Origin: Candidatus Omnitrophota bacterium
GTDB lineage: Bacteria > Omnitrophota > Gorgyraeia > Zapsychrales > Zapsychraceae
NCBI GenBank assembly: GCA_029261055.1
Contig: JAJDCA010000071.1
Location: 153,778-217,777, forward strand
Reading direction: 5' to 3'
DNA length: 64,000 nucleotides
Position numbers and translations under genes: made by a program. Under the pieces are notes generated by a model. The model had not been told where the DNA came from. It worked only from the letters and a program-made list of their open reading frames with translations, and did no database searches. This document shows positions 4,827-58,750 of the stretch, piece by piece (position 1 is the stretch's first letter; every line of letters starts with the position of its first letter).

Positions 4827-5978
4827 TTGGAGGAATTTATGGATATTAAAAGGTGTATCAATCTTCGGGCAACCCTTAATAAAAAATCATTATTTTTATT
4901 TGGCCCCAGGCAGACGGGGAAGTCCTGGTTGATCAATCGTTATTTTAAGGATTGTAGAATTTACGATCTTTTGGATAGTGAAACATATCTTTTATTAAAT
5001 CAAAATCCAAAAAGATTAGAACAAGAAATTCAGCCAGAGGATAAGATTGTTGTTATTGATGAAATACAAAAACTTCCATCTCTTCTTGATGAGGTGCATC
5101 GGCTTATTGAACAGAGGGGGCTTCATTTTTTATTGACCGGATCTAGTGCAAGAAAATTACGCCGGGGTGGTGTCAATTTATTGGGGGGGAGGGCGCGGTC
5201 GCGTCATTTACATCCTTTTATTTTTAACGAACTTAATAATCATTTCAATTTATTAAAAGCTCTTAATTATGGTTTGATTCCTTCTATTTATTTTTCTGAT
5301 GCCCCCCAGGAAGATTTAAAAGCATACGCCGGTGATTATTTAAAAGAAGAAATAGCGACGGAAGGGTTAACTCGTAATGTGCCGGCGTTTAGCCGTTTTT
5401 TACAAGTAGCAGCCTTATGCAACGGATTATTAATCAATTATGCCAGTATTTCTAGTGACGCGCAGGTGCCAAGCAGTACGGTTCAGGAGTATTTTCAAAT
5501 TCTACGCGATACCCTTATTGGGTTTGATGTGCCCGCGTGGAAAAAAAGTATAAAGCGTAAGCCTGTGGGTACCTCAAAATTTTATTTTTTTGATGGAGGC
5601 GTTGTTCGATTTTTACAGAATCGATCCCCCTTTGAAGAAAAATCTCCAGAATTTGGAGATGCCTTTGAAACGTACATAGCGCATGAATTAAAATCTTTTA
5701 TTGATTATTCTCTGTCAGGGGAGCTTTGTTACTGGCGCTCTAGATCAGGTTTTGAAGTTGATTTTATTGTTAATGATATGCTGGCGGTGGAGGTAAAAGC
5801 AAAACAAAATATTACACCCAAAGATATGCGTGGTATTAAAGCTTTACAGGAAGAGCATAAATTATCGCATTATGTTATTGTTTCTTTAGAACAGCGGCCT
5901 CGCATTGTAAATAATATTCACATCCTTCCCTGGAAAGATTTTCTTTTTCAATTATGGGATGGGAAATTTAATAAATAG
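4827..5978 (+). CDS. AAA+ superfamily ATPase (AAA_14 + DUF4143 / COG1373 family)
   Basis: Walker A 'GPRQTGKS' and Walker B 'VVIDEIQ'. The C-terminal region is typical of DUF4143. This is the first of three diverged paralogs in the window. Confidence 0.7.
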   Translation: MEEFMDIKRCINLRATLNKKSLFLFGPRQTGKSWLINRYFKDCRIYDLLDSETYLLLNQNPKRLEQEIQPEDKIVVIDEIQKLPSLLDEVHRLIEQRGLHFLLTGSSARKLRRGGVNLLGGRARSRHLHPFIFNELNNHFNLLKALNYGLIPSIYFSDAPQEDLKAYAGDYLKEEIATEGLTRNVPAFSRFLQVAALCNGLLINYASISSDAQVPSSTVQEYFQILRDTLIGFDVPAWKKSIKRKPVGTSKFYFFDGGVVRFLQNRSPFEEKSPEFGDAFETYIAHELKSFIDYSLSGELCYWRSRSGFEVDFIVNDMLAVEVKAKQNITPKDMRGIKALQEEHKLSHYVIVSLEQRPRIVNNIHILPWKDFLFQLWDGKFNK

Positions 5979-6114
5979 TCAAATTTTAAAAGAATAATAA
6001 CATGTTGATACATAATAGTTTATGTTTTAATGAGTTTTTATTCGTTTATTAGAATTTCTGTAAACTATTAACCATCAGTTGGTTACAATATTCCTACCTG
6101 AAATTTGTGTCCCC

Positions 6115-6166
6115 TTGACATGTGCTTAAAATATGTTATCTTTTCAGTGTATTAGAGAAGAAAACG
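6115..6166 (+). promoter_or_regulatory. Putative sigma70-type promoter (TTGACA-N16-TATCTT) plus a ~38-nt conserved block shared with the 52163..52213 region
   Basis: TTGACA at 6115-6120, 16-nt spacer, TATCTT at 6137-6142. The block aaaatatgttatcttt[t/c]cagt[g/a]tatta..aagaaaacg is nearly identical upstream of the paralogous giant gene at 52327. Confidence 0.55.
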
Positions 6167-6204
6167 ATATCTTGAGTCATTTCGTATAAAAACCTGCCAA
6201 TAAT

Positions 6205-6239
6205 CCTGCCTGTCGGTAGACAGGCTCGCCACGGATTGG
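6205..6239 (+). promoter_or_regulatory. Conserved leader element: hairpin (gcctgtc-ggta-gacaggc) followed by invariant CTCGCCACGGATTGG
   Basis: The same architecture occurs at 52244..52273. The hairpin there has a different stem sequence but the same structure, with the identical 15-nt motif after it. Confidence 0.5.
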
Positions 6240-6267
6240 CCTATTTTTAACTCAATAGAGGAAAAAT

Positions 6268-9200
6268 ATGTTTATTTTACGCCAAAAACAACGGGTGCGT
6301 GTAGCGTACAGAGTGTTATCAGCCTTTATTATGGCCGTATTTTCCGTAACAACAATTATCCCAAGTGGTTATGCACAGAGTGTATCTTTGCCAACGGCAG
6401 GCACGGTTTTAAACCTTCCTGTGCCCGGCACGATGGTGGGCATAACCGAAGGATTTACCCCGGCTCTGATTAAAGGTATTACCATTTATCCGGACAATCC
6501 TTTGATGTTTGATTTTATTGTGGATAGCGGGCATTCTGAGATGACTGGAGAGGCCCTTAAAGATGAGGCGTCTGATATGATTAAATATTTCCTGGCGGCC
6601 TTAACCATTCCGGAAAAGGATTTATGGGTCAACTTGAGCCCGTATGAGGCGGACCGTATTATTCCTGATGGTTTGGGCGACACCTCTATGGGTCGCGATA
6701 TGTTGTCGCAAGATTATATGCTTAAACAACTTACGTCTTCGATGATGTATCCGGAGGATGAGCTGGGTGGTGAATTTTGGGAGCGTGTGTATGATAAGGC
6801 TTATGAAAAATTCGGCAACACCGACATTCCAATGAATACTTTTAACAAAATTTGGATTGTGCCACAGGCGGCTGAAGTCTATGAGCGTGAAAAAAGTGCT
6901 TTTGTAGTGGGCAGCCGTTTAAAGGTTATGTTGGAAGAAGACTATGTCGCTTTGCAGAAAAATTTAGGGGTGGAACAATATGGATTAGATGCGATGCCCA
7001 AGAGCGAGGCCAAGGTTGTCAGTGGTGTCACCTCAGAGGTAGTGCGTGAAGTCTTGATTCCTGAAATCGAACGCGAAATAAACGAAGGCGCCAACTTTGC
7101 CAAACTCCGCCAGATCTACCATGCCATGATTTTGTCTACGTGGTACAAAAAGAGGCTGCAGGAAAGTTTATTGGGACAGGTGTATGTAGATCAAAATAAA
7201 ACCATGGGCGTCGATACTCAGGATAAGCAGATCAACCAAAAAATTTACGATCAATATGTCGAATCTTTTAAAAAAGGCGTGTACAACTACATTAAAGAAG
7301 ATTACAACCCCGCCACCCAACAAATCACCCCCCGCAAATATTTCTCCGGCGGAATGAATCAATCCATGTTGAGCCGTATTTTTAAATTTATGGATAGGCC
7401 GACACGATTTGAGGTAGCACCGACAGGATTTGAGATATCCTACCAAACAAGTCTGATCGATGCCAATAAAGACAATGCGAGTATTGCCGTGCGTGTGAAA
7501 GAAGAGGTTGAATCGCAGGTTGATTTTGTGTTGATGAACTCAGAAAAAGAAATCGTTTCGGATGAGTCGATGCTTCAAGATTTTGATCCGTTTTTTTTGA
7601 TGAGTCTTATAACAAAATGGTCGCCTAAATATGAGGATGATTTAAAGGTATTCCACTTTATAAGGCATTTATATCTTGCCTGGATAGCGACGAAGGGGGA
7701 TCTTGCTAAGGCAACAATGACTTTAACGGAGAAGTCTTCATTTAAAAAATTTATTCAGGATAAAACTTTAGTCAATAAGGCTATTGAAGGGTCGCTTTAT
7801 GTGAATAATCCGAATATTAAAGGTTTGCTAAAAAACATCCGCACAGATATCACCAAGGCTGAAAATAAAATAAAGGCGGTAAGAAGAGAATTTGTTGGGG
7901 TGAATGAAAAAAGTACACAGGAAACGCAGGAGGCGGGGATGATCACGCTTCAGAATGTTCTTTTGAAAAATAAGAGTGCTGGTAAGACAGGGGAGGAGGA
8001 TGTTTTTGGAATAAGCATTAGTCGATTTCCAAGTGATCAATACGGTGAATTCGAGGCAAATTTTATCCAGAAAGATGGAAATACTGTGCAAATAATTGCA
8101 TGGCAAGAAAATAAAATTATTGACGTTGATTACAATCAGACAATGGAAAATTTTTACAAGGATCATAATTTATTTTATCGCAATAATAAAAAAGGGATTC
8201 CAACGGTAATTATTGAGGAAAAGTACGGAAAAAATAGAAAAATTTATAAAATTACACGTGGTGAAGGGCAAGAAGTAATGAAACAAAAGGATTTCAAAGA
8301 GCTTGTTTGGAATGATACGGCGATGGTTACAGATAAAGAAAGTCAGGCCGCTAAGAAGATATTGTTTGATTTTAGAGAAAGTGAAGCTAATAGGATGAAT
8401 ACTGCAAGAATACGAAGAGTCCATGTTCTTATGAATGCAATGAGAATTCGGTATGCCATAGGAAAAGATGAAGGAAGCAGTGTTGTTGGCATATTTTATG
8501 ATATGGAAAAAGCATTCTTGAAAAAGCAATCCAACTTCAAGCACTCAGATGCAATATTATTTTATCATACTGTTTTAGCGTTGGATCTACCAGACGAAGA
8601 ATACGTAACGCTAAAAAATAGTGTGATGCAAAGCTTGTTCCGTTTGGCAGAGAGAATAATGAAGGAAGAGGGGATCGTCATTAGTGTAAAGGAGATTTTA
8701 GCCCAGAAGGAAAAAATAAAAATGGCTATGATAAACGTTTTGCCGCATATGAAGCATTTTAAACATATGGAGTGGGGTGTCTATGATTACATTGATCGGG
8801 TTTTAAGCAGTTCAGATAAGAAATGGGATGAAGTATATTATTACAAGTACAAGGTGGCGATAAGTTTAGGGGAGAGCTATTCCAAGTTAGGGCATTCATT
8901 TGAAGGTGTTTTTGCGAAGATTAAGGGGAAGATAGCTTCTTTTCGGGCCAATGATTATGTAGATGTGTTTAGACAGTTGAATAAAAAATATACCGCGGAT
9001 GCATTGTATCAGGGGTTACCCTACACGGTAGATGGGGTGCGGATTTTTAAATCGAGATTAAAACAATACCGTCAGGATTTCAGATCGGCCATGGATACGC
9101 ACTATAAAAATATTTTTAAACTCGCACTTAAAGGTGAGCTGGAAGACAGTCCTTATGATATTTATGAAAATGAAGGGTCATCATTGCAAAATCAAGCAGG

Positions 9201-11340
9201 TGCGCAACTTTCTACAGAAGAATTAATTTATCTTAATGGCATTGCGGCAGGAAATGAATCGTTCTGGTTAGAAGCGTGGAGAATGCGCAATGCTTTTCAA
9301 AACAGTCCGGATGAGGTCGAAAGACTAATAATCCTTGAGGATGTTTTTAATGGCAAATCAATAGAGTTGGGGCTTTTAAAAATAGAAAAGGACGAAAAAA
9401 AGAAGGATAAGGAAAAAATAGCAATACTTGAAGTTGAAATGAAATCGATCGAAGAAACAATTGACCTTCTTTTAGAGAAAAAGCAAGAGATTTTAAGTGA
9501 AGTAGAGTATGTTGCGGAGGATGAGAATGAACAGAATCTAGCCATGTTAGTAGGGCTGAATCAGAAGATTGATCAATGGCTGCAGGGGCTTGAAAAAGAT
9601 GAAGACGCGGCGATGGCAGCGTTTAAATCATTGCTCCTTAAGATTAAACAGAAAATAACGGGGATATCTAATCGGAAAAAAATTGTTGTCGAGGATATTC
9701 CAGGTCTTGAGACGCTTGGGGTATCGATGGAAAATTTCCTAAATGCAGAAGGTATCCATACACCCAAAGATGCGGCTAAGTTGGGTAAGAGCATCAATGA
9801 GACGATAAACAGAGCGATTAAAGCATTTAGAAAGCGAGGTTCAGTGGATTTTACAGAAGATAATCTTTTCGCACTTCTTCTTAAGAAATATGATGAAAAT
9901 GTGCCCATTAATCGGGACGATTTAATGAAAGATTTAGAAAAATTTTCCCTAGGTGTGTATTCGAATTCTGTTGAGTTTGGCCTTATCAAATTACAATTAC
10001 AAATGAAAGTGTTTCTAAATCGGAACGTCGAGTGGTTTTTGAGTCCTATGCATCACTTTCCTCAAGCGGTGGCCAGGGCCAGTCAAGATAATAATATTGG
10101 GAGAACTATTGAAATGTTGGGCGAAATTTCGACGTATTTAGATGATGGAGTAACCTTTGCTGGAAACGCGGCGAGTAGGATATTCAAGAAGTATAAATAC
10201 ATAGATGAAAATAATTATGAAGAGATGGCCGATGAGTATGCACAAGTAGTGCGTTCTCTTCAAGATCACATCAAACAAATTGCAGATGAAGATCATGAGG
10301 AATTTCAAGAGATGATAGATATTTTAAATGCCAGTATTCAGCAACAGCTTGAAGATGTCTTGGGGGGTATTGCAGAGGCTAAAGTTCCTTATGTAGAAGA
10401 AAGAGGAGGTAAACGTTTTTCCATAGGTATTCCTTATGATTTGAGGGATAGCTTTGCTAAAAATGTAGTGAGTATCTATGAACGCCATACTGACTGGATG
10501 AACATTCTTAAAGTATCTTTAAAAGGGACCTATCGTGATTTGAAAATTAAAATAGATGAAGTGCGGGAGATGGAGAAAAAGTTCATAAATGATTATTTTA
10601 ATGTCAGGCCAAATAGCAATCTTTTGAAGGAAGAAGAAAAAGAAATATATATCCCAAGAGTAGAAGAGTTTTATGAGAAGTTAGCTGAATTTGAAGGAGT
10701 AAAAATGCCATCTAAGGAGAAGCGTTGGATTACGGGGTGGATTTTAAAATTAGAGGGCATATATAAAGGATTAGGAGGGGCAGACAAGGTTATTGATCGC
10801 GTGAATGTAAAGACAATAGGCGACGGCATGGACACCTGGGATGATTTGCCGGATTTTGATCAAATAACGGCAGAATTAGATGACTCCATGATGGCCACGA
10901 CTCTGGCAGAATTGCTAGAGAAATTGAAAATGTCAAAAGATGAAGTGGATAAAAAGGCTGTTACAAAACAAATATTTAGACTGGTGGACGAAGATTTAGA
11001 CGAGCCTTTAAAAGGTAGATTTCTTAAACAATTCACTGAATTAAATGGTGAAACGGATAAAGCGAGCATAACTCCCATTGGTGGTATTAATTTTGATTCG
11101 GCGATGTTGAATTTGCAGATTAAGCGCGATGGGGCTGGGGTGCCCTTGCCTTTGATTGAGCAGGATATGGATTTGGGTATGCGTGTCCAAGGATTTTTGC
11201 CGATTATTATTAATGCTACTCCAGTAAGCCTGCCGCAGTTGCTTGGTTTTTCCGATACTGTACCGCAAGAGGCCGATTCTTCGACTATGAGTCTGTCTTA
11301 TCACATCCTCACCCGCGACCCGCAGGATATTATCATTTAA
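6268..11340 (+). CDS. Giant secreted/surface protein of unknown function (1690 aa). N-terminal conserved domain, long K/E-rich coiled-coil centre, conserved C-terminal ~65-aa module
   Basis: N-terminal signal/anchor (positively charged, then hydrophobic, AQS). Residues ~40-375 are about 70% identical to the 52327 paralog. The central region is strongly lysine/glutamate-rich with heptad-like repeats. The C-terminal block GGINFDSAMLNLQIKRDGAGVPLP…LPIIINATPVSLPQLLGF is shared with the paralog. I recognise no known domain. Confidence 0.75.
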   Translation: MFILRQKQRVRVAYRVLSAFIMAVFSVTTIIPSGYAQSVSLPTAGTVLNLPVPGTMVGITEGFTPALIKGITIYPDNPLMFDFIVDSGHSEMTGEALKDEASDMIKYFLAALTIPEKDLWVNLSPYEADRIIPDGLGDTSMGRDMLSQDYMLKQLTSSMMYPEDELGGEFWERVYDKAYEKFGNTDIPMNTFNKIWIVPQAAEVYEREKSAFVVGSRLKVMLEEDYVALQKNLGVEQYGLDAMPKSEAKVVSGVTSEVVREVLIPEIEREINEGANFAKLRQIYHAMILSTWYKKRLQESLLGQVYVDQNKTMGVDTQDKQINQKIYDQYVESFKKGVYNYIKEDYNPATQQITPRKYFSGGMNQSMLSRIFKFMDRPTRFEVAPTGFEISYQTSLIDANKDNASIAVRVKEEVESQVDFVLMNSEKEIVSDESMLQDFDPFFLMSLITKWSPKYEDDLKVFHFIRHLYLAWIATKGDLAKATMTLTEKSSFKKFIQDKTLVNKAIEGSLYVNNPNIKGLLKNIRTDITKAENKIKAVRREFVGVNEKSTQETQEAGMITLQNVLLKNKSAGKTGEEDVFGISISRFPSDQYGEFEANFIQKDGNTVQIIAWQENKIIDVDYNQTMENFYKDHNLFYRNNKKGIPTVIIEEKYGKNRKIYKITRGEGQEVMKQKDFKELVWNDTAMVTDKESQAAKKILFDFRESEANRMNTARIRRVHVLMNAMRIRYAIGKDEGSSVVGIFYDMEKAFLKKQSNFKHSDAILFYHTVLALDLPDEEYVTLKNSVMQSLFRLAERIMKEEGIVISVKEILAQKEKIKMAMINVLPHMKHFKHMEWGVYDYIDRVLSSSDKKWDEVYYYKYKVAISLGESYSKLGHSFEGVFAKIKGKIASFRANDYVDVFRQLNKKYTADALYQGLPYTVDGVRIFKSRLKQYRQDFRSAMDTHYKNIFKLALKGELEDSPYDIYENEGSSLQNQAGAQLSTEELIYLNGIAAGNESFWLEAWRMRNAFQNSPDEVERLIILEDVFNGKSIELGLLKIEKDEKKKDKEKIAILEVEMKSIEETIDLLLEKKQEILSEVEYVAEDENEQNLAMLVGLNQKIDQWLQGLEKDEDAAMAAFKSLLLKIKQKITGISNRKKIVVEDIPGLETLGVSMENFLNAEGIHTPKDAAKLGKSINETINRAIKAFRKRGSVDFTEDNLFALLLKKYDENVPINRDDLMKDLEKFSLGVYSNSVEFGLIKLQLQMKVFLNRNVEWFLSPMHHFPQAVARASQDNNIGRTIEMLGEISTYLDDGVTFAGNAASRIFKKYKYIDENNYEEMADEYAQVVRSLQDHIKQIADEDHEEFQEMIDILNASIQQQLEDVLGGIAEAKVPYVEERGGKRFSIGIPYDLRDSFAKNVVSIYERHTDWMNILKVSLKGTYRDLKIKIDEVREMEKKFINDYFNVRPNSNLLKEEEKEIYIPRVEEFYEKLAEFEGVKMPSKEKRWITGWILKLEGIYKGLGGADKVIDRVNVKTIGDGMDTWDDLPDFDQITAELDDSMMATTLAELLEKLKMSKDEVDKKAVTKQIFRLVDEDLDEPLKGRFLKQFTELNGETDKASITPIGGINFDSAMLNLQIKRDGAGVPLPLIEQDMDLGMRVQGFLPIIINATPVSLPQLLGFSDTVPQEADSSTMSLSYHILTRDPQDIII

Positions 11341-11408: not shown

Positions 11409-12737
11409 ATGAAAAGATTCATAGAAGAAGAATTAATAAAGTGGAAAGATGATTCAGATCGAAAGCCGCTTATTCTTTCAGGGGCTCGGCAAGTTGGCAA
11501 GTCTTATGTCATAGAACGCAACTTTTCTTCCAATTTTGATCAGGTTTTAAGTATCAACTTTGAAAAACAGCCTGAGTTTAAGGATTGTTTTGAGTCAGAC
11601 TTATCACCGGGAAAAATTATTCGTAAAATTGAGGCTTTAAGCCAGAAAAGAGTAGATATTGGTCGAACCCTAGTTTTTTTGGATGAGATTCAAATTTGCC
11701 CAAAAGCCATAACGGCTTTGCGGTATTTTTATGAAGAACTTCCTGCCTTACACCTTATCGCCGCGGGATCGCTGCTTGAGTTTACAATGGAAAGTATTTC
11801 TGTGCCTGTGGGGAGGGTAACTTACCGTCATTTAACTCCGTTATCATTTGAAGAATTTCTTTATAATTCCGGGAATGAAATTTTATTAGAAGAAATATCA
11901 CGGCATAATTTTGATGCCCCGTTTGATAAGGTGGTGGCTCAAAAAGCGGAAGTTCTTCTTAAAGAATATATGGCGATTGGAGGGATGCCGCAGGTTGTAG
12001 ATCGGTATATTCAGAATCAAGATTATTTAAAATGTCAGGAAATTTTGTCAGATTTGCTGGAAACTTATACTAACGATTTCCCTAAATATGGTCGAAGGGA
12101 TGCGGATTTGAAATATATTGATTTAGTTTTCGCGAGAGCTGCGCATCTCGTAGGAAAGCAGTTTAAATATGTTCATATTACGCGGGATATTCAATCAAAA
12201 TACATCAAACAAGGCGTTGACCTTCTTGTTAAGGCTGGCGTTTTGTCCTTGATTTACAAAACATATGGTTCTCCTCTGGGGGCTAATTATAATCCGCATC
12301 GTTTTAAGCTGCTATTTCTTGACATTGGTCTCATGCAAAGGGCATGTGGTTTGAACATATCTAGATGGGTAAGTGATGGGCATGATTTGATTCACGCAGG
12401 GGTGATCGCTGAACAGTTTGTAGGGCAGGAAATTGCAGCACATGCACATTTTAAAAAAGGAAGACTGTATTATTGGGAGAGAGACAAAAGGGGGAGTTCT
12501 GCGGAACTTGATTATCTTGTGGAAATGGCTGGGCGCATTCTACCTGTTGAGGTTAAATCAGGAACCATCGCCAGGTTAAAGAGTTTGCAGAATTTTCTGA
12601 AAGCGCATCCTGATATTCCTGAAGGAATTAAAGTATCTCTCGACAATTCTGGAAAGAAACAAAATATTCGTTCAATCCCGCTGTACGCCTTTGGGAGCTG
12701 GTTAAAACGGCAGGATTATACTAAATCTATTAAATAA
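11409..12737 (+). CDS. AAA+ superfamily ATPase (AAA_14 + DUF4143 / COG1373 family)
   Basis: Walker A 'GARQVGKS' and Walker B 'LVFLDEIQ'. Second paralog, immediately downstream of the giant gene. Confidence 0.7.
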   Translation: MKRFIEEELIKWKDDSDRKPLILSGARQVGKSYVIERNFSSNFDQVLSINFEKQPEFKDCFESDLSPGKIIRKIEALSQKRVDIGRTLVFLDEIQICPKAITALRYFYEELPALHLIAAGSLLEFTMESISVPVGRVTYRHLTPLSFEEFLYNSGNEILLEEISRHNFDAPFDKVVAQKAEVLLKEYMAIGGMPQVVDRYIQNQDYLKCQEILSDLLETYTNDFPKYGRRDADLKYIDLVFARAAHLVGKQFKYVHITRDIQSKYIKQGVDLLVKAGVLSLIYKTYGSPLGANYNPHRFKLLFLDIGLMQRACGLNISRWVSDGHDLIHAGVIAEQFVGQEIAAHAHFKKGRLYYWERDKRGSSAELDYLVEMAGRILPVEVKSGTIARLKSLQNFLKAHPDIPEGIKVSLDNSGKKQNIRSIPLYAFGSWLKRQDYTKSIK

Positions 12738-29176: not shown

Positions 29177-29264
29177 CCGTTGTAGCTCAGTTTCCGCCAC
29201 AAAGCGTGGCAGATCCGCCATGTATTTTGGTGGAGGTAGGGCAAGTGAGTTTATTCGTAATTTT
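29177..29264 (+). pseudogene. Degenerate tRNA-Thr 5' fragment (D-arm + anticodon arm) interrupted by a ~44-nt insertion
   Basis: gccgttgtagctcagtt … gggcaagtgagtttattcgtaatttt matches the 5' half of the intact tRNA-Thr at 31659. There is no 3' half. Confidence 0.55.
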
Positions 29265-29336
29265 TTAATATTTTGATGAATATTGGTATTGAAGTAATTA
29301 GCATCTTTTGGTGCCGTTTATTGTGAGTTTAAGAAA

Positions 29337-30801: not shown

Positions 30802-30848
30802 ACGTTGTAGCTCAGTTAGTAGGGCCAGTGAGTTCATTCGTAATTTTC
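30802..30848 (+). pseudogene. Degenerate tRNA-Thr 5' fragment
   Basis: acgttgtagctcagttagtagggccagtgagttcattcgtaatttt aligns to positions 1-~40 of the tRNA-Thr at 31659. The 3' half is absent. Confidence 0.55.
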
Positions 30849-30975
30849 TAAATTTGTAGATATATTGCTTTTTGAACAGAAAATAGGATATAAAATTTGA
30901 GAAATATACTGACATAATTAAACCTAGTAGAGTTTTTCATACTTAATAGAATTTAAGAATAATAAAGAATTTGTT

Positions 30976-42136: not shown

Positions 42137-43102
42137 GTGAGAAGGATGTTTTGGGTGGTCATTATTTTGGCGGTGTTTTTTGCGGTTAATATGGGGGTGG
42201 CGAGTTTTGCGGCTTCATTTGCTACGGCTTATGGAGGAAAGGTTCTTTCACAAAAATCGGCAGGGTTTCTTTTTGTTGGATTTGTGATTTTGGGATCAGT
42301 TGTGCTTGGCAAAAATGTGGCCATTACTTTAGGTCAAGAGATTGTGCCACCGCTTTTTATTGGAAAAAAGGCTTTGATCGTGATTTTTGTGTCTGCGGGA
42401 TCGAGTATGTTTATTTCCAACCTCATGAAGATTCCGCAGTCAACCAGCTTAGTTACAGTGGCCGCTATTGCCGGTGTAGGAGCATATTATCGGAAAGTTA
42501 ATCTTCCCGTTATTGCGGGGTTGATTCCATTTTGGATTTTGCTACCTTTGATAAGTTATTTTATTACGCGTTATATTACGGGATTAATTTACCCACCACG
42601 CAAAGGTAATTTTTGGGTATATGAACGTTTTATTCATCATCGTGAAAAGTTAAAGAAGTTTGTTATTATTACGGGGTGTTACAGCGCATTTTCCGTCGGA
42701 GCCAATAATGTGGCGAATGTGGCGGGGCCTCTAATCGGGTTAGAAGGTTTTTCAGTATTTTTTGCATTAGTTATATTTGCAGGCATCTACGGAATGGGAG
42801 CTTTTACATTTGACGGACCGTTAAAAACAGCAGGTAAACATATCGTGCCCTTAGGGTTGATGACAGCCTCGATTATTTCTTGTGTGAGTGGTACATTAAT
42901 GATATTTGCTTCTCTCTTTGGCGTACCACAATCATTTGTCATGTTACAGATGGGCGCCATCTTTGCCGTGGCTAGTTTGAAGCATGGAACGGAGTTAACA
43001 TTTAATGATGCATGGACAAAGAAAACATTGTATACTTGGACCATTAATCCCGTGCTGACATTTGTGATCAGCTGGGGCTTGTGCTTTTTGATTATTAGAT
43101 GA
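42137..43102 (+). CDS. PiT-family anion permease (putative sulfate/phosphate permease, CysP-like)
   Basis: Two 'GANNVAN/GANDVAN'-type PiT signature regions (GANNVANVAGPLIG). Context is cysK/H/D/N. Confidence 0.6.
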   Translation: MRRMFWVVIILAVFFAVNMGVASFAASFATAYGGKVLSQKSAGFLFVGFVILGSVVLGKNVAITLGQEIVPPLFIGKKALIVIFVSAGSSMFISNLMKIPQSTSLVTVAAIAGVGAYYRKVNLPVIAGLIPFWILLPLISYFITRYITGLIYPPRKGNFWVYERFIHHREKLKKFVIITGCYSAFSVGANNVANVAGPLIGLEGFSVFFALVIFAGIYGMGAFTFDGPLKTAGKHIVPLGLMTASIISCVSGTLMIFASLFGVPQSFVMLQMGAIFAVASLKHGTELTFNDAWTKKTLYTWTINPVLTFVISWGLCFLIIR

Positions 43103-43122: not shown

Positions 43123-43313
43123 GACACGAAATCGCTTTTAAGAGATTGCTGATAAATTATTTGCAATCTCCTAAGCAAAGATTAGCACATTCGGCTCAGA
43201 GGAGATTTCGTTCTGCTCGATCTCCAATTCGCCGCATGCACTAATCTTTGCTTTGAACGATTACAACTTTTAAGTTGTAAATTTTTGGTCAACCCGTCTT
43301 ATCAAGAGGTTGT
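43123..43313 (+). repeat. Structured repeat element, copy 1 (long imperfect hairpin; carries an extra 34-nt sub-hairpin gagattgc…gcaatctc)
   Basis: ~85% identical to 58597..58750 over the shared segments (cgaaatcgcttttaag…aaagattagcacattcggctcagaggag…ctccaattcgcc…atgcactaatcttt…cgattac…ggtcaa(c/t)ccgtctta..aagaggtt). Inverted-repeat arms pair into a long stem-loop. Confidence 0.6.
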
Positions 43314-45111: not shown

Positions 45112-45131
45112 CCTGCCTGCCGGCAGGCAGG
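45112..45131. repeat. 20-bp perfect palindrome CCTGCCTGCCGGCAGGCAGG (member of a small palindromic repeat family)
   Basis: Perfect self-complementarity in the cysH-cysD intergenic spacer. Related copies at 6205..6224, 53120..53135 and 53289..53315. Confidence 0.7.
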
Positions 45132-50592: not shown

Positions 50593-51762
50593 TTACAAAT
50601 CATTCAAGAGGTGGATATCAGAAGGGTCTTTTATGATAAGTTTTTTGGTGGCTTTTATGCGGTTGAAAAGGTTTAATTGCTTTTTAGTAAGTTCTCGATA
50701 ATATTTTGATTCAATTAAGGTTTTATTTTGTGTATAGAAATCAATTTCTATGCCGTCCTCGTATATGTAAGATGGGCTTGCCTGACGGATTTTTAAGAAA
50801 ATATAGTTTTCAAAAAGGCTCCCTTTGTCTCGAAACCCTGTAAACAAAGTGCGTATGCCAAGGTCCGGGGCGTAGCCTTTTTTAGGGGATAGAAGTGTTT
50901 CATTAGTTTTACCATGGCGTGGGATAAGGTAAATTAAGTAGGTTTCGGCAAACATCGAAAGATAGCGTTTAGCTGTATCGGGCGCAATAGAGAGTATTTT
51001 AGCCATTTTATTGATACTTATTTGTTTGCCGGCACGTTCCATAAGGAGCATGAAATAGTCTTTTATCATTTGAGGATTCTTAATGTTATGATAGGCAATA
51101 ATATCTTTATAAATAATGTCATCGACCAGGGTTTTTAAATATTCACGATCTGGGTGGAGAACATATTCAGGGATACCACCGGTTTTCATATAATCTTCAA
51201 AATACGGTTCTTTAAGATAGTTTTCTTTTTGTTTGATGGTGATGTTACGAAATTGGCAAAATTCTTCAAAATCAAGTGGGGCGATTTCTAAAATACGTTC
51301 TCTTCCGGTTAAAAGTGCTTTTTTATCTTTGAGTAAAGAAGTGCTTGAGGAAGACGTATAAATTTTTACGTTTTGATTGTCATAAAGGTTTTTTAGTTGT
51401 AAATGTGGATTTTTTTTGTAGGTAATTTCATCAAGAAAAAGATAGATTTTTTTGTTAAGAGGCAGTTTGAAAATTTTGCGATATTCTGAAATGATATCAA
51501 GGATGGATTTATTTATTAAGGTATAATCATCCAGGCTCACATAAAAAATGTGTTTTGGGTTAGCTCCTTTATGAATAAGCCGTTGGATAAAAAGTTTCAA
51601 TAGAGTCGTTTTTCCAACCCTTCGTAAGCCGGTAAGGATAACGATTGATTTTGTGTTGAGAAGATTTTCCATGGAAGAAAGTATGCGCGGACGATCTTTA
51701 ATTGCTTCTAGTGAAATGGGCTCTTCCCACCATGGATTGTATTGGTAGAGTGTTTCTTTCAT
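50593..51762 (-). CDS. AAA+ superfamily ATPase (AAA_14 + DUF4143 / COG1373 family)
   Basis: Walker A 'GLRRVGKTT' and Walker B 'YLFLDEIT'. Start trimmed to MKETLYQYNPWWEE by analogy with the paralogs. Third paralog, divergent to the second giant gene. Confidence 0.65.
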   Translation of the reverse strand: MKETLYQYNPWWEEPISLEAIKDRPRILSSMENLLNTKSIVILTGLRRVGKTTLLKLFIQRLIHKGANPKHIFYVSLDDYTLINKSILDIISEYRKIFKLPLNKKIYLFLDEITYKKNPHLQLKNLYDNQNVKIYTSSSSTSLLKDKKALLTGRERILEIAPLDFEEFCQFRNITIKQKENYLKEPYFEDYMKTGGIPEYVLHPDREYLKTLVDDIIYKDIIAYHNIKNPQMIKDYFMLLMERAGKQISINKMAKILSIAPDTAKRYLSMFAETYLIYLIPRHGKTNETLLSPKKGYAPDLGIRTLFTGFRDKGSLFENYIFLKIRQASPSYIYEDGIEIDFYTQNKTLIESKYYRELTKKQLNLFNRIKATKKLIIKDPSDIHLLNDL

Positions 51763-52162
51763 GCCTAAAGTATACGTTATAATCGTATATTTATCAAGGA
51801 AATTATACGATAATGATAAAATAATAATGTAATTGTTAAATACCATGAAATAAGAAATTGACAATTTTGAATATCATGTCCTTAAGATATGTAAGTATTT
51901 AGCATTCTGAGTTGTCGAAGAGCGTTAAAAGCATGAAATTATTTCTAGCAGGACATTGAAAGCCCTGCGCATTCCATGCTGACACCGGGGAATTTTCTGA
52001 GTGTTTTCTTAAAAAAATAAGTATTTTAAAAGAAATGTATCATGTTTTAAATCAATAGGTTATGCAATCTACAAATTTCTTCATTTTTATAATATATTAT
52101 AACATTATTTATTTCAATATGTTATGAATCATCTGGCTTCATTTCTCTCCACTTGACACTCG

Positions 52163-52213
52163 TCCAAAATATGTTATCTTTCCAGTATATTAATAAGAAA
52201 ACGTTTTATTCCA
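52163..52213 (+). promoter_or_regulatory. Putative sigma70-type promoter (TTGACA-N16-TATCTT) plus conserved block, paralogous to 6115..6166
   Basis: TTGACA 52163-52168, TATCTT 52185-52190. The block aaaatatgttatctttccagtatattaataagaaaacg is nearly identical to the one upstream of the first giant gene. Confidence 0.55.
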
Positions 52214-52243
52214 CATAATTACACCAATAATTCCTACAGCAGG

Positions 52244-52273
52244 TAGGTCTCGCCACGGATTGGTTAAATTTAT
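52244..52273 (+). promoter_or_regulatory. Conserved leader element: hairpin (cctac-agcag-gtagg) followed by invariant CTCGCCACGGATTGG
   Basis: The structure is conserved relative to 6205..6239 with a different stem sequence (compensatory changes). The 15-nt motif is identical. Confidence 0.5.
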
Positions 52274-52326
52274 AAAAATTAATTAGACATTGAACTACAA
52301 TGTTTTTTCATAATCCGGAGGAAATA

Positions 52327-55300
52327 ATGAACATTTACATAAAAAAACAACGTTTTTGTCTGTTTTACAGGGCTTTATCCGCCTTTATTGCCGTGGCATT
52401 CCTAACCACCAGCATTGTGCCGCAAGGGTTTGGGCTGAGCGCAGTCGAAGCCTATGCGCAGAGTATGTCTGTGCCAGCACCAATAGTGTTAAATTTGCCT
52501 GTACCGGGTACAATGGTCGGCATGACCGAAGTATTTACACCGGCAATGGTCAAGGGCATCACTATTCATCCGGATAATCCGCTTTTATTTGATTTTCTCA
52601 TCAATAAAGGGGATACCCATCTTAAAGGCGACGAATTAAAGACGGAAGCCAATAAATTGATTAAATATTTTTTGGCGGGCCTAACCGTGCCGGAGAAAGA
52701 AATGTGGGTTAACCTCAGTCCGTACGAAGCAGATAGAATTATCCCTGAAGGTTTTGGCGATACCGAAATGGGCCGGGATTTGCTTGCGCAAGATTACATT
52801 TTAAAACAGCTCACCTCATCATTGATGTATCCAGAAGATGAATTAGGTGAGGCCTTTTGGCAACGTGTTTATGAAAAATCTTATGAAAAATTTGGTCATA
52901 CAGATATTCCGATGAACACATTTAACAAAATTTGGATCGTGCCGGAAAACGCATCTGTGTATGAACACGAAGAAACTTCGACCGTGTATTTAGTGGATAG
53001 TCATTTGAAGGTGATGCTTGAAGAAGATTATGTTGCTGCGCAACATAATAGTGACGCGTCGCTCGTGGCTCGTGACTCGAAAAAACATTCGGATATCAAG
53101 CGCGCCACGCGTCACGCCATGCCTGCCGGCAGGCAGGAGCGACTAGCGACGAACCTTATCCGAGAGATTCTTATCCCCGAAATCGAACGCGAAGTCAACC
53201 AAGGCAAAACGTTCGCCAATCTGCGCCAGATTTATCATTCCGTTATTCTGGCCACGTGGTACAAACGAAAATTTGCTGTAGGGAACGAGCACCTGCCTGC
53301 CGGTAGGCAAGGTGCCCAATCCTTATTAGGACACGTGTATGTAGATCAAAACAAAACCAAAGGTGTAGATACGCAGGATAAAGACATTAACCAAAAGATT
53401 TATAATCAGTACGTCGAATCTTTCAAGAAAGGCGTTTACGATTACATCAAAGAAGATTATGATCCCGCGACTCGACAGATCATCCCGCGGAAATATTTCT
53501 CAGGAGGAGCGGAGCTTTTTCTGGCCAAAATAAATCACGCTATGCTCACTCCAGAAAGGCGTGTAGAGATAACAAGCGAGGGTAAGAATACAGATCGTGT
53601 TGTAGTGGAATTGAATGAAATCGGATTAAAAGGTACTGACTATGCACAAGTAGTTACAGATTCAGGAGAATATTTACAGCGGGCAGGTGATATTAAAAGT
53701 GCGGAAAATGTAGATGCAGTAATTAGTCCTATTGTCGATAATGCGATGCAAACATTTCCAGGCTTAATGAATAAATTTTCAAAGGATGGGTATGTTTTAC
53801 ATGCATTGGAACGAGGAGCTGATTTAACGCCTTGGGATGGAGAGGTTGTTATGGAATTGCTTGGTCAAATGACTGAAGGGCGTGAGTATGCGAATGGAGT
53901 TATTTATGATTCGGGTCATTATAGAAGCAGAAGTTTTACTTATTTTAACATGCCATTTTTGAGTGAATTGAGTGAAGATATTATTAGGTTTTCCGTTGAT
54001 TCATCTCATAAAAATCCAATCGAAGTAGTAGATACATCTGAAAATTTTGAGTTTTTTCTTGGTGAAAATAAAGAAACACAAAAAATTGAATTTTTAGCTT
54101 GGGAATGGAAACGACGCGATGTGAGCTATGAAGAACATAACATTTCCTATAAAGGTGAAAATGGGAAATATGATGTTCTTAAAATAAGCCCTAAGCAATA
54201 TGGGAATGTTTTGAGTAAAGGATTTGGAGTTGAAGAAAAACCTTCTAGTAATCAGATTGCCTATTTAGGGGCTACACAACTAAAAGGGAAAGAGTTTAAG
54301 GAATGGAATTTTTCTAATATTGAAGAAACTTCTCAGGGAAAGTGGGGGCATGGCTCTTCATATAGTATGGATTATCCTGAGTTTAAGAAAGACTTTATTC
54401 ATTACACGCAATATAGAAATGATGATGTAGATTTAATGACACACGTTTATTCAATTCCAGTAATTATGAAAGATAATCTTTCTTATAATATGGGTAAAAA
54501 TAAAAATAGCGAAGGTTTTGAAATTCGTATTGGCAGAAATAAAAATAGAGAAATTGAGTTTATGTTGTTAACAGCTCCACAAAAAATTATTTTAAGGTAT
54601 AAAAATAAGCTAGGAATGCCGAAAAGTAAAGTGATAACGAAAGCTGAACGTGATCAAATTTTAAAAGATCCGACAATAATTAATACAATAATATTTAATA
54701 GTAAGAAAATGTCCAAGGAATGGGTTGTTGATGAGGCAAAGGAAAAAGAATTTTCAGAAAACACTAAAACACGTATTCTAAATAATCAGGTAATAGTAGA
54801 TGAGCATACTAAGGTATTAAAAAATAAGAGAGTTGTGGAGATTAAAGAAAATGGAAAGAAGCCCTCCAACTTAATGCCGGAGAATAAAAAAGAACATGAA
54901 AAAGTTATGCGTATTAATAAAATAATAGAAGAGATGAAGTCGGTTGTTAAGAACCATTCTTTTCGTGACCTTTATTTTGGTCCAATTCTAGGACGAAAAA
55001 ATATTAAATCTTTTCGTGATTATTTAATAGCAGGGAATATACAAGACATTCAGGCGATTGTTTCTGGTATGAATCCACAGAAGGCAAAAGATAAGGGAGA
55101 AAAAAAGATTTTTAGAAAATATTATGAAAGTCCAAAATTTTCTAATTTAGCAACACAAATCAAATCAAAAGCAAAAGCTTTAATAGATAAGCTTCCTCAA
55201 ATCAAGGGAAAAAATCTAGAAGCCGAGATAAATTCTTTTCGTGAAGATGTTTTAAATGAAATTGAAAATCTTGATGCGGCGATGATTGGAAATGGTCAAG

Positions 55301-56473: not shown

Positions 56474-57151
56474 ATGGCGCATAAAATTCTAATTATCGAA
56501 GATGACCGGGATATTGCGGAGATGATTGAGTATAATTTGCAGCGGGAGGGGTATGTGGTTCTGAAGGTGTTTGATGGTCAGGAGGCTTTGCCGGCGGTTA
56601 CGCGGCATCGGCCGGATTTGGTTATTTTGGATATTATGTTGCCTTCGGTGGATGGGTTGGATATCTGTAAGGCTTTGCGTAGAGATGAAACTACCATTGA
56701 TCTTCCGATTATTATGTTAACTGCCAAATCGCAAGAGTCGGATAAGGTGATTGGTTTGGAGCTCGGGGCCGACGATTATGTGACCAAGCCTTTTAGTCCG
56801 CGCGAATTGATGGCTAGGGTTAAGGCGGTGCTGCGACGGACGAAAGTAGATAAATCTTCGTCCAAAACTTCTTTCGGCCCTGTAATCATTGATCATAAAC
56901 GTCACAGGGTTGACGTGGATGGTCAGGAGGTTATGTTGACGGCTACGGAATTTAAGCTATTAGATTTCTTGGTCCAAAAGACAGGGGCGGTTGTTTCACG
57001 TGATCAGATTCTTGATGCGGTTTTTGGGTACAGCTCCGAAGTGTATGACCGCACGGTCGACGCCCATATTAAATCCCTACGTAAGAAACTGGGACCTGCC
57101 AAAGATTACATTGAAACCATCCGGGGTTTTGGATATCGATTCAAAGAGTAA
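56474..57151 (+). CDS. phoB: OmpR/PhoB-family response regulator
   Basis: REC domain (ILIIEDDRDIAEM…LVILDIMLPSVDG…) plus winged-helix output (…RGFGYRF). Adjacent to a PhoR-like kinase, a Na/Pi cotransporter and a PhoU-like gene. Confidence 0.75.
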   Translation: MAHKILIIEDDRDIAEMIEYNLQREGYVVLKVFDGQEALPAVTRHRPDLVILDIMLPSVDGLDICKALRRDETTIDLPIIMLTAKSQESDKVIGLELGADDYVTKPFSPRELMARVKAVLRRTKVDKSSSKTSFGPVIIDHKRHRVDVDGQEVMLTATEFKLLDFLVQKTGAVVSRDQILDAVFGYSSEVYDRTVDAHIKSLRKKLGPAKDYIETIRGFGYRFKE

Positions 57152-57156
57152 TTTTT

Positions 57157-58596: not shown

Positions 58597-58750
58597 ACGC
58601 GAAATCGCTTTTAAGTAAAGATTAGCACATTCGGCTCAGAGGAGACCTCGTTCTGCTCGGCCTCCAATTCGCCTAATGCACTAATCTTTACTTTGAGCGA
58701 TTACGACTCAACTCGGTCAATCCGTCTTAATAAGAGGTTATGTATCTTCA
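58597..58750 (+). repeat. Structured repeat element, copy 2
   Basis: Matches 43123..43313, minus that copy's 34-nt sub-hairpin. Lies between the phoR stop and the Na/Pi transporter start. Confidence 0.6.

What the first reader, a model, noticed from the sequence alone, without database searches (positions are those of the whole stretch)
6115..6267. Near-identical promoter and structured leader upstream of both giant genes, with a covarying hairpin and invariant CTCGCCACGGATTGG (second copy at 52163..52326)
Both upstream regions share TTGACA-N16-TATCTT, then an almost identical ~38-nt block (aaaatatgttatcttt[t/c]cagt[g/a]tatta..aagaaaacg). About 40-55 nt further downstream there is a hairpin whose stem differs between copies (gcctgtc/gacaggc against cctac/gtagg) but keeps its pairing. 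The identical 15-mer CTCGCCACGGATTGG follows directly. Intergenic sequence conserved between diverged paralogs, with compensatory stem changes, is the signature of a functional cis-regulatory element. It could be an operator at the transcription start plus an RNA leader motif. This would mean the two giant genes are co-regulated by a dedicated mechanism.
Basis: seen in the sequence. Interest (0 to 1): 0.75.

Follow-up and report, generated by a model that had tools for sequence, protein, structure and literature searches.

The report
Shared promoter, LacI-type operator, private leader
Two related secreted-protein genes of an uncultivated Omnitrophota bacterium share a strong promoter, a repressor-type binding site found before this gene family across the phylum, and a short folded leader seen only in this genome; this is mostly ordinary gene control, newly mapped in a little-known phylum.

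Summary
The sequence features exist and exceed chance. Both genes (6268-11340; 52327-56097) have TTGACA-N16-TGTTATCTT, a 27-nt block with 25 identities, AAGAAAACG, CCAATAAT, a hairpin and the identical 15-mer. Four-fold degenerate sites of the two genes are only 41% identical, so these islands are under selection.

Comparison with 78 homologous Omnitrophota loci splits the finding in two.

1. The promoter is an ordinary extended -10 sigma-70 promoter. AAGAAAACG is the left half of a palindrome, GAAAnCGnTTTC, lying about +11 to +23.
   - It occurs upstream of 25 of 78 family genes (1.8 expected).
   - It equals the core of streptococcal CcpA cre sites.
   - A conserved Omnitrophota LacI-family regulator gene lies directly upstream of a family gene in 3 of 7 contexts examined.
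   - The most likely mechanism is repression by a LacI-type regulator. This is inferred, not shown.

2. The hairpin plus 15-mer was found nowhere else.
   - With two copies, covariation cannot be shown, and the two stems are not in register.
   - The hairpin of copy A is a degenerate copy of a dispersed 20-nt GC-rich palindrome.
   - An outer helix (G/A)CCAAU/AUUGG(C/U) is kept, with one compensatory closing pair.
   - Its function is unknown.

Verdict: partly supported, a new member of a known kind, moderate interest.

The parts
5983..6024 (+). Distal shared block of copy A (ATTTTAAAAGAA..CATGTT..ATAG.TTATG), 132 nt upstream of the -35 hexamer. Function unexplained.
   Evidence: 74% identical to 52023-52064 and at the same distance from the promoter.
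6115..6142 (+). Sigma-70-type promoter of gene A: -35 TTGACA at 6115-6120, 16-nt spacer, extended -10 TGTTATCTT at 6134-6142. The predicted transcription start is near G6149.
   Evidence: The consensus scan gives 10 of 12 matches plus TG. TATGTTATnnT occurs 15 times within 300 nt upstream of family genes and once elsewhere on that strand in the 78 homolog loci. The start site is inferred from spacing, not measured.
6160..6171 (.). LacI-type operator-like site of copy A, GAAAACGATATC (degenerate right half), at about +12 to +23.
   Evidence: It has 1 mismatch to G[AT]AAnCGnTT[AT]C and 2 mismatches to GAAAACGTTTTC. It lies at the same distance from the -10 element as in the homolog loci.
6196..6240 (+). 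5'-UTR stem-loop of copy A. Outer helix GCCAAU (6196-6201) pairs with AUUGGC (6235-6240). The inner hairpin is 6208-6225. The 3' internal loop is UCGCCACGG.
   Evidence: RNAfold gives -21.5 kcal/mol for 6185-6250, z = -3.8. The inner hairpin region 6205-6224 is a 3-mismatch copy of CCTGCCTGCCGGCAGGCAGG.
6225..6239 (+). Invariant 15-mer CTCGCCACGGATTGG, copy A.
   Evidence: There are exactly two copies in the window. It is absent from the 78 homolog loci.
6257..6270 (+). Ribosome-binding site AGAGGA and the ATG of gene A (6268-11340, 1690 aa).
52023..52064 (+). Distal shared block of copy B, 130 nt upstream of the -35 hexamer. It overlaps a promoter-like site on the minus strand that faces the divergent AAA_14 gene.
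52153..52180 (+). Sigma-70-type promoter of gene B: TTGACA at 52153-52158, 16-nt spacer, TGTTATCTT at 52172-52180. The predicted transcription start is near A52187.
52197..52208 (.). LacI-type operator-like site of copy B, GAAAACGTTTTA, at about +11 to +22.
   Evidence: It has 1 mismatch to the 12-bp palindrome GAAAACGTTTTC.
52223..52264 (+). 5'-UTR stem-loop of copy B. Outer helix ACCAAU (52223-52228) pairs with AUUGGU (52259-52264). The inner hairpin is CCUAC/GUAGG at 52233-52247.
   Evidence: RNAfold finds the same architecture, but only -9.1 kcal/mol, z = -0.7. The closing pair is A-U here and G-C in copy A.
52249..52263 (+). Invariant 15-mer CTCGCCACGGATTGG, copy B.
52317..52329 (+). Ribosome-binding site GGAGG and the ATG of gene B. 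The true start is 52327, not the 52300 given in the ORF list. Gene B is 52327-56097, 1256 aa.

Best explanation
The two regions are the promoter and 5' leader of two old paralogs (about 60% identical in the N-terminal domain). The paralogs belong to a very large Omnitrophota-specific family of signal-peptide proteins. Three layers are present.

1. A strong extended -10 (TRTGn-type) sigma-70 promoter. This is shown by consensus matches and by comparison with homologs.

2. A palindromic site of the form aGAAAnCGnTTTCt, lying just downstream of the predicted transcription start.
   - I infer that it is the operator of a LacI-family repressor.
   - The candidate is the conserved Omnitrophota LacI/Peripla_BP_3 protein, whose gene often sits directly in front of a family gene.
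   - On this view, family genes scattered around the genome, including these two, form one regulon. The regulon would be switched by the regulator's unknown small-molecule ligand, through blocking of promoter escape or elongation.

3. A 5'-UTR stem-loop specific to this genome.
   - Its outer helix is (G/A)CCAAU/AUUGG(C/U).
   - It encloses a variable GC-rich palindromic hairpin and an invariant unpaired CUCGCCACGG.
   - It is most likely a sequence-specific binding site on the mRNA for a protein or small RNA that is not in this window.
   - This last step is the weakest and is pure inference.
For: Promoter:
- Both copies score 10 of 12 consensus matches plus TG.
- TATGTTATnnT occurs 15 times within 300 nt upstream of family genes and once elsewhere on that strand in 78 homolog loci.

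Operator:
- GAAAACGTTTTC with at most 1 mismatch gives 20 hits in 511 kb, and 15 of them lie within 250 nt upstream of a family gene.
- 17 of 78 upstream regions have at most 1 mismatch, against 0.1 in shuffles.
- The relaxed pattern with a central CG is found in 25 of 78 regions, against 1.8 expected. Perfect matches number 16, against 0.12 expected.
- Positions -2 and +2 vary freely while G, AA, CG, TT and C are fixed, as in LacI-family sites.
- Where an extended -10 element is recognisable, the site starts 4-20 nt after it.
- As RNA the palindrome is essentially unstructured, 0 to -2.3 kcal/mol.
- The same 12-mer is the core of the streptococcal cre consensus ATGAAAACGTTTTCAA (PMC6090898). 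It is also the core of an in vivo CcpA-bound site, AAAGAAAACGTTTTCT (PMC8359418).

Candidate regulator:
- A LacI-family gene (Pfam LacI plus Peripla_BP_3) lies directly upstream of family genes in L047, L202 and L203. Sites TGTAAGCGCTTTCA or TGAAAACGTTTTCA sit just after the intervening promoter.
- Orthologs of this regulator are widespread in Omnitrophota.
- They carry TGTAAnCGnTTACA in front of their own genes or operons.

Selection on the leader:
- Four-fold degenerate sites are 41% identical, against 15/15 and 8/8 identity in the leader islands.
- The outer helix is kept although the loop length differs by 3 nt, with a G-C to A-U change at its base.
Against: - No transcription start, protein binding or expression data exist.
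- No LacI-family gene is in the window, and the rest of the source genome is unavailable.
- The site of copy A is degenerate: its right half is GATATC.
- Only about one third of family upstream regions carry a site.
- Only 3 of 7 regulator loci adjoin a family gene.
- The regulator's own sites prefer GTAA, whereas family sites prefer GAAA, so a different paralog could be involved.
- For the leader there are only two copies.
- Copy B folds no better than shuffled sequence (z = -0.7).
- No relative of the leader was found by pattern search, BLAST or covariance model.
Confidence: 0.6

Rival explanations
1. The hairpin and 15-mer region has no regulatory role. An old small stem-loop (AAUCC-UGCCAC-GGAUU) received an insertion of the genome's dispersed GC-rich palindromic repeat. 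The identity between the two copies reflects patchy gene conversion between paralogs rather than selection.
For: - Hairpin A (6205-6224) matches CCTGCCTGCCGGCAGGCAGG with 3 mismatches. Zero such matches are expected in shuffles. Three other copies occur in the window.
- Removing 20 nt from copy A gives AATCCTGCCACGGATT. This contains the CCTGCCACGG word seen in leaders of another genome (L017, L018, L025).
- The leader of copy B folds no better than shuffles.
- No homolog of the motif was found elsewhere.
Against: - Identity comes in short islands (8 nt and 15 nt) separated by unalignable stretches of different length. This is the footprint pattern of selection, not a conversion tract.
- Synonymous sites are near saturation.
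- The flanks CCAATAAT and CTCGCCACGGATTGG are absent from the other copies of the palindrome.
Confidence: 0.2
2. Everything downstream of the -10 element is one structured RNA leader, of riboswitch or attenuator type. On this view the conserved GAAAACG...  palindrome acts as an RNA 5' hairpin rather than as a DNA operator.
For: - The conserved elements all lie in the predicted transcript.
- The stem-loop of copy A is followed by CUAUUUUU.
- In copy B the 15-mer can alternatively pair with AUAAUCCG next to the ribosome-binding site.
Against: - The palindrome folds at 0 to -2.3 kcal/mol and leaves only a 4-nt loop.
- Its variable positions do not covary.
- No Rfam family matches, even at E-values up to 10.
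- No terminator-like site is called on the + strand.
- The alternative pairing with the ribosome-binding region is not shared by copy A.
Confidence: 0.1
3. The 15-mer and the CCAAT arm are DNA sites for a second transcription factor, for example the OmpR-type response regulator encoded just after gene B.
For: - A perfectly invariant 15-mer suggests sequence-specific recognition.
- A response regulator and histidine kinase pair lies at 56474-58584, and gene B itself carries a receiver domain.
Against: - The distance between the CCAAT and ATTGG arms differs by 3 bp between the copies (33 versus 30 nt), which is unfavourable for a dimeric DNA binder.
- The site lies 75-90 nt downstream of the predicted start.
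- OmpR-family sites are direct repeats, and none is seen here.
Confidence: 0.07
4. The shared upstream sequence is a generic dispersed repeat or mobile promoter cassette unrelated to these genes.
For: The window contains other dispersed repeats.
Against: - There are only two copies in 64 kb, both at the same position before paralogous genes.
- The promoter and operator recur before homologs in dozens of other genomes.
- Metagenome matches to the 15-mer are unrelated contexts, mostly in G+C-rich contigs.
Confidence: 0.03

Closest known systems
LacI/GalR-family operators, in particular CcpA cre sites (TGWAANCGNTNWCA; streptococcal consensus ATGAAAACGTTTTCAA, PMC6090898; in vivo CcpA site AAAGAAAACGTTTTCT, PMC8359418)
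   Same: - A 12-16-bp palindrome with an invariant central CG.
- Fixed G, AA, TT and C positions, and free positions at -2 and +2.
- Placement at or just after the transcription start.
- A LacI-family gene adjacent to target genes, and autoregulatory sites before the regulator gene.
   Different: - Position -7/+7 is mostly A/T(C) rather than T/A.
- The targets are a huge family of secreted proteins of unknown function, not sugar catabolic operons.
- Neither the regulator-site pairing nor the ligand is known.
- The window's own two sites each deviate from the palindrome.
Extended -10 (TRTGn / TGn) sigma-70/sigma-A promoters
   Same: TTGACA, a 16-nt spacer, and TATGT immediately before TATCTT.
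   Different: Nothing unusual. The -10 hexamer TATCTT is two bases away from TATAAT.
Short dispersed palindromic repeats (REP/BIME elements; Rickettsia palindromic elements, which insert in frame into genes)
   Same: A 20-nt GC-rich palindrome occurs intergenically (45112) and twice in frame inside gene B, where it adds PAGRQ (53118, 53292). A degenerate copy forms the hairpin of leader A.
   Different: It is much shorter than Rickettsia palindromic elements. It is nearly specific to this genome, with one similar copy in the other loci. No transposase or mechanism is known. The comparison rests on my own knowledge of those elements and was not tested.
Protein- or sRNA-bound 5'-UTR stem-loops (for example CsrA-type GGA sites)
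   Same: A conserved single-stranded sequence containing ACGGAU is presented next to a helix, and a second GGA lies in the ribosome-binding site.
   Different: - The GGA is partly inside the outer helix.
- No csrA gene or partner RNA was seen.
- Related leaders in another genome have GGU instead.
- This is only a lead recalled from memory.

Membership tests
Sigma-70 extended -10 promoter | A -35 hexamer close to TTGACA, a 16-18-nt spacer, a -10 hexamer close to TATAAT, and TG one base upstream of the -10 hexamer. | tested here: met
   Both copies have TTGACA-16-TATCTT with TG, 10 of 12 matches.
Sigma-70 extended -10 promoter | A transcript 5' end 6-8 nt downstream of the -10 hexamer. | not testable with these tools
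   No RNA data are available. The start sites at about 6149 and 52187 are predictions.
LacI/GalR-family operator (cre-like) | An imperfect palindrome of 14-20 bp with a central CG and the pattern GnAAnCGnTTnC. | tested here: met
   In the count matrix of 25 sites, G, AA, CG, TT and C are fixed in 22-25 of 25 sites, and positions -2 and +2 vary. The window sites have 1 mismatch each to the relaxed pattern.
LacI/GalR-family operator (cre-like) | Non-random association with a defined set of target genes. | tested here: met
   15 of 20 near-perfect sites lie within 250 nt upstream of family genes. 25 of 78 upstream regions carry a site, against 1.8 in shuffles.
LacI/GalR-family operator (cre-like) | A LacI-family regulator is encoded in the same genomes and linked to targets. 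| tested here: inconclusive
   A LacI plus Peripla_BP_3 gene lies directly upstream of family genes in L047, L202 and L203, but not in L204-L207. There are more than 1000 homologs at E <= 1e-20, and every one of the listed best hits that carries a source name is from Omnitrophota. None is in this window, and the source genome is not available.
LacI/GalR-family operator (cre-like) | Physical binding of the regulator to the site, relieved or enhanced by a ligand. | not testable with these tools
   This needs gel-shift, DAP-seq or reporter assays.
Any described structured RNA family (Rfam 15) | A covariance-model score at or above the family's gathering threshold. | tested here: not met
   Only two tRNAs were found in the whole window. 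In the two leaders the best E-values are 2-9, far below the gathering scores.
Conserved structured cis-regulatory RNA (new motif) | The same structure in several independent sequences, with compensatory changes. | tested here: inconclusive
   There are two copies only. One compensatory closing pair (G-C versus A-U) is seen in the outer helix. The inner stems are not in register. The covariance model finds no further member in 0.66 Mb. The word GCCACGG occurs in 5 other leaders, against about 1.5 expected, which is weak.
Intrinsic terminator / attenuator | A G+C-rich stem-loop followed directly by a U run. | tested here: not met
   No terminator-like site is called on the + strand in either leader. 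In copy A the U run is 17 nt from the strong hairpin.
Upstream leader peptide (uORF) | An open frame with a start codon and ribosome-binding site, conserved at the protein level. | tested here: not met
   The frame across the 15-mer gives similar pseudo-peptides. However, neither copy has ATG, GTG or TTG before the last few codons.

The most novel reading that the evidence does not exclude
Each Omnitrophota genome keeps its own private 5'-UTR signature on many paralogs of this secreted-protein family. Here it is (G/A)CCAAU-hairpin-CUCGCCACGG-AUUGG. In the DATDQB genome it is CCUGCCACGGUAAUUCAGG. In several other genomes it is AUUCCCCAAUC. On this reading the signature is read by a fast-evolving trans-acting RNA or protein, forming a second, post-transcriptional layer on top of a phylum-wide LacI-type regulon. 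That regulon would control a polymorphic effector family in host-dependent nanobacteria.
Probability: 0.2. Interest if true: 0.6.

Novelty: new member of a known kind. Interest (0 to 1): 0.4.

Why it matters
Omnitrophota are uncultivated, mostly ultra-small bacteria thought to depend on hosts (PMC10066038). This gene family has more than 1,300 clusters. Its members have a signal peptide, a conserved 400-aa head, a variable middle and a conserved tail. It has no annotation and, in the literature I could search, no described regulation.

The family shares a cre-like operator and is genomically linked to a conserved LacI-family regulator. This gives a concrete, testable handle on when these proteins are made and which small molecule triggers them. 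It also provides a search pattern for finding the rest of the regulon. The mechanism itself would be conventional. The genome-private leader motif is at present an observation with two copies.

Tried and rejected
- **Rfam.** Searches at gathering score over the whole window and at E-values up to 10 on both leaders found nothing relevant.
- **15-mer in homolog loci.** A search with up to 3 mismatches in 78 homolog loci gave only scattered 3-mismatch hits. The one in L010 (TTTTCCACGGATTGG) appears to lie in the upstream gene's coding region.
- **Metagenome scan.** It was uninformative for finding relatives. A longer pattern including CCAATAAT would have been a better use.
- **Closest homologs.** The closest homologs of genes A and B are only 58-67% identical. 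Where their upstream DNA was read (L199-L201, L208), there was an extended -10 promoter (L199, L200), a direct tandem junction (L208), or no shared block recognised (L201). None has the 15-mer. No close relative of the source genome is in the protein database.
- **Covariance model.** A model built from the two leaders, using the outer helix only because MAFFT does not align the inner stems, found only the two seeds. The next hits had E about 0.04-0.05 in unrelated positions.
- **Conserved neighbouring regulator.** The upstream neighbours of 75 family genes are diverse housekeeping genes. The AAA_14/DUF4143 ATPase genes that flank both window genes are not conserved neighbours elsewhere.
- **GCCACGG as a family-wide leader word.** It occurs 5 times against about 1.5 expected, which is too weak.
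- **Leader peptide.** Rejected because there is no start codon.
- **Sequestration of the ribosome-binding site by the 15-mer.** This is plausible for copy B only and is not shared by copy A.
- **Sigma-54 promoter reading of the 15-mer.** Rejected by eye: there is no GG-N10-GC arrangement on either strand.

Full report
**What is there**

The window comes from a Candidatus Omnitrophota genome: all named homologs of its large genes are from that phylum.

The two 'giant' genes are gene A (6268-11340, 1690 aa) and gene B. Gene B really starts at ATG 52327, behind GGAGG, and ends at 56097 (1256 aa).

- They share a signal peptide, a 400-aa N-terminal domain (60% identity) and an 80-aa C-terminal domain (48%). 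Their middles differ, and gene B carries a receiver domain.
- The N-terminal domain defines a family of more than 1,300 protein clusters with no Pfam, NCBIfam or PDB match.
- Family genes occur many times per genome, dispersed or in tandem.

**Check of the observation**

| Element | Copy A | Copy B |
|---|---|---|
| TTGACA-N16-TATCTT with upstream TG | 6115-6142 | 52153-52180 |
| 27-nt block, 25 identical | 6128-6154 | 52166-52192 |
| AAGAAAACG | 6158-6166 | 52195-52203 |
| Hairpin | 6208-6225 | 52233-52247 |
| 15-mer CTCGCCACGGATTGG | 6225-6239 | 52249-52263 |

The 15-mer occurs at these two places only in the window.

I add two features. The first is a shared CCAATAAT (6197-6204; 52224-52231). 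The second is a distal block (5983-6024; 52023-52064) lying 130-132 nt upstream of the -35 hexamer.

The conservation is not neutral. At four-fold degenerate sites of identical residues in the aligned N-terminal domains, only 37 of 91 third bases agree. Between the islands, the upstream regions are unalignable and differ in length. This pattern indicates selection on short elements, not a recent conversion tract.

**Promoter and operator**

I fetched 78 loci encoding the N-terminal domain from other Omnitrophota genomes.

- *Promoter.* The word TATGTTATnnT (TRTGn plus a -10 hexamer) occurs 15 times within 300 nt upstream of family genes. It occurs once elsewhere on that strand and never on the opposite strand. 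The promoter is thus a normal strong extended -10 promoter that the family tends to keep.
- *Palindrome.* k-mer counting showed that AAGAAAACGTT recurs. Anchoring on the -10 element revealed a palindrome, GAAAACGTTTTC, a few bases downstream.
- *Enrichment.*
  - With at most 1 mismatch there are 20 hits in 511 kb, and 15 lie within 250 nt upstream of a family gene.
  - 17 of 78 upstream regions have such a site, against 0.1 in shuffles.
  - With the relaxed pattern G[AT]AAnCGnTT[AT]C and a fixed central CG, 25 of 78 regions have a site (1.8 expected). Of these, 16 are perfect (0.12 expected).
- *Position.* Where an extended -10 element is recognisable, the site begins 4-20 nt after it, most often 15-20 nt.
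- *Window sites.* These are GAAAACGTTTTA (52197-52208) and the weaker GAAAACGATATC (6160-6171). Both lie 16-17 nt after the -10 element, at about +11 to +23.
- *RNA or DNA.* As RNA the palindrome has essentially no stability, 0 to -2.3 kcal/mol. The free positions -2 and +2 do not covary. A DNA site for a dimeric protein is therefore the better reading.

**Which protein**

The pattern GnAAnCGnTTnC with a central CG is the signature of LacI/GalR-family operators.

- The literature search for the exact 12-mer returned CcpA cre sites. These include the streptococcal consensus ATGAAAACGTTTTCAA (PMC6090898) and an in vivo CcpA-bound site AAAGAAAACGTTTTCT (PMC8359418).
- A tblastn search with E. coli LacI against all held Omnitrophota DNA hit one place only, L047:1742-2779. 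This gene has Pfam LacI plus Peripla_BP_3 domains.
- It lies directly upstream of a family gene. That gene's TTGACA-N17-TATCTT promoter is followed after 5 nt by TGTAAGCGCTTTCA.
- The regulator has more than 1,000 homologs at E <= 1e-20. All of the best hits that carry a source name are from Omnitrophota.
- Seven genomic contexts were examined. In three (L047, L202, L203) the next gene downstream is a family member (tblastn E of 1e-85 to 1e-121). Each has a palindrome right after the intervening promoter: TGAAAACGTTTTCA and TGCAAACGTTTTCA in L202.
- In five contexts (L047, L204-L207) a TGTAAnCGnTTACA site precedes the regulator gene or its operon, as expected for autoregulation.
- Caveats: the regulator's own sites prefer GTAA and family sites prefer GAAA. 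Only 3 of 7 contexts are linked to a family gene. No LacI gene lies in the window.

The link is therefore a well-supported inference, not a demonstration.

**The hairpin and the 15-mer**

RNAfold puts the 15-mer's AUUGG in a 6-bp helix with the upstream CCAAU in both copies. The helix is GCCAAU/AUUGGC in copy A and ACCAAU/AUUGGU in copy B. It encloses the variable hairpin and leaves (U)CUCGCCACGG unpaired.

- The helix base pair changes from G-C to A-U. This is the only real compensatory change.
- The arm-to-arm distance differs by 3 nt. This fits RNA pairing better than a dimeric DNA site.
- Copy A folds well (z = -3.8), but copy B does not (z = -0.7).
- The inner stems are not homologous position by position.
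- Hairpin A is a 3-mismatch copy of a 20-nt palindrome, CCTGCCTGCCGGCAGGCAGG. That palindrome also occurs at 45112 and twice in frame inside gene B. Zero such matches are expected by chance.

Neither the 15-mer nor the architecture turned up in any of these searches:
- the 78 homolog loci;
- the nearest homologs of genes A and B;
- a covariance-model search of 0.66 Mb;
- Rfam.

The 120 metagenome matches to the 15-mer are unrelated contexts, mostly in G+C-rich contigs.

Other genomes show their own shared leader words among paralogs. One example is CCTGCCACGG in L017, L018 and L025. Another is ATTCCCCAATC in L021, L022, L030, L031, L039 and L068, with a close variant (ATTTCCCCAATC) in L072. 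This hints at genome-specific leader signatures. The common core GCCACGG is only weakly enriched, 5 occurrences against about 1.5 expected.

Three readings of the leader were tested and not met:
- a leader peptide, because there is no start codon;
- an intrinsic terminator;
- a shared mechanism that sequesters the ribosome-binding site.

**Conclusion**

The finding is real but composite.

- The upstream half is an ordinary strong promoter plus what is very probably a LacI-type operator. That operator marks this gene family across the phylum. It is a new regulon of a known kind, and the most useful result here.
- The downstream half (helix, hairpin, 15-mer) is selectively maintained in this genome. 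Its function is unknown. It cannot be called a covarying RNA motif on two copies.

Noticed in passing
window 45112-45131, 53118-53137, 53292-53311 (and 6205-6224): A 20-nt GC-rich perfect palindrome, CCTGCCTGCCGGCAGGCAGG, is dispersed in this AT-rich window. Two copies lie in frame inside gene B and add MPAGRQE and LPAGRQG, exactly where gene B has insertions relative to gene A. This resembles in-frame palindromic element insertions. Only one similar copy was found in about 0.6 Mb of other Omnitrophota DNA (L046).
   Followed up: partly
window 43172-43268 and 58612-58708: A 97-nt direct repeat, 90% identical, containing a long internal inverted repeat (AAGCAAAGATTAG...CTAATCTTTGCTT). Each copy lies just after a gene end (ORF 42137-43102; histidine kinase 57157-58584) and is preceded by GAAATCGCTTTT. 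There is no Rfam hit. It could be a small mobile element or an unknown structured RNA.
   Followed up: no
window 29236-29268 and 30819-30851: A 33-nt repeat, 91% identical (GTAGGGCAAGTGAGTTTATTCGTAATTTTTTAA), lies upstream of two neighbouring genes (a Sel1-repeat protein and a Yip1-domain protein). It may be a shared regulatory site.
   Followed up: no
window 4827-5978 (+), 11409-12737 (+), 50593-51864 (-): Three AAA_14 + DUF4143 ATPase genes flank the two family genes. They are only 20-24% identical to each other. This neighbourhood is not conserved next to family genes in other genomes (1 of 78 loci).
   Followed up: partly
L047:1742-2779; L202, L203 and L204 6001-7035; L205, L206 and L207 from 5001: A conserved Omnitrophota LacI-family regulator carries TGTAAnCGnTTACA before its own gene or operon. 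In 3 of 7 contexts it is directly followed by a member of the secreted-protein family. In L204 and L207 it is followed by other large unannotated proteins with similar sites.
   Followed up: partly
gene A 6268-11340, gene B 52327-56097, and homologs P0001-P0270: The family is built as signal peptide, conserved 400-aa head, variable middle and conserved 80-aa tail (GGINxDxxMLxLQIKRDGxGVPLP...). The variable middles include a receiver domain, and other members have Pfam hits to Metallophos, ankyrin, PGI and epimerase families. This is a polymorphic, cargo-carrying architecture with no annotation in Pfam, NCBIfam or the PDB.
   Followed up: partly
window 5983-6024 and 52023-52064: A distal upstream block is shared by both genes at a fixed distance (130-132 nt) from the -35 hexamer and contains the palindromic words TTTTAAAA and (A)ACATGTT. 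In copy B it overlaps a promoter-like site on the minus strand that faces the divergent ATPase gene. Its role is unexplained.
   Followed up: partly
whole window: 43 of the 47 ORFs of at least 150 aa are on the + strand. The + strand has G 22.8% against C 14.9%. This strong strand bias is consistent with one replichore and a leading-strand gene orientation.
   Followed up: no
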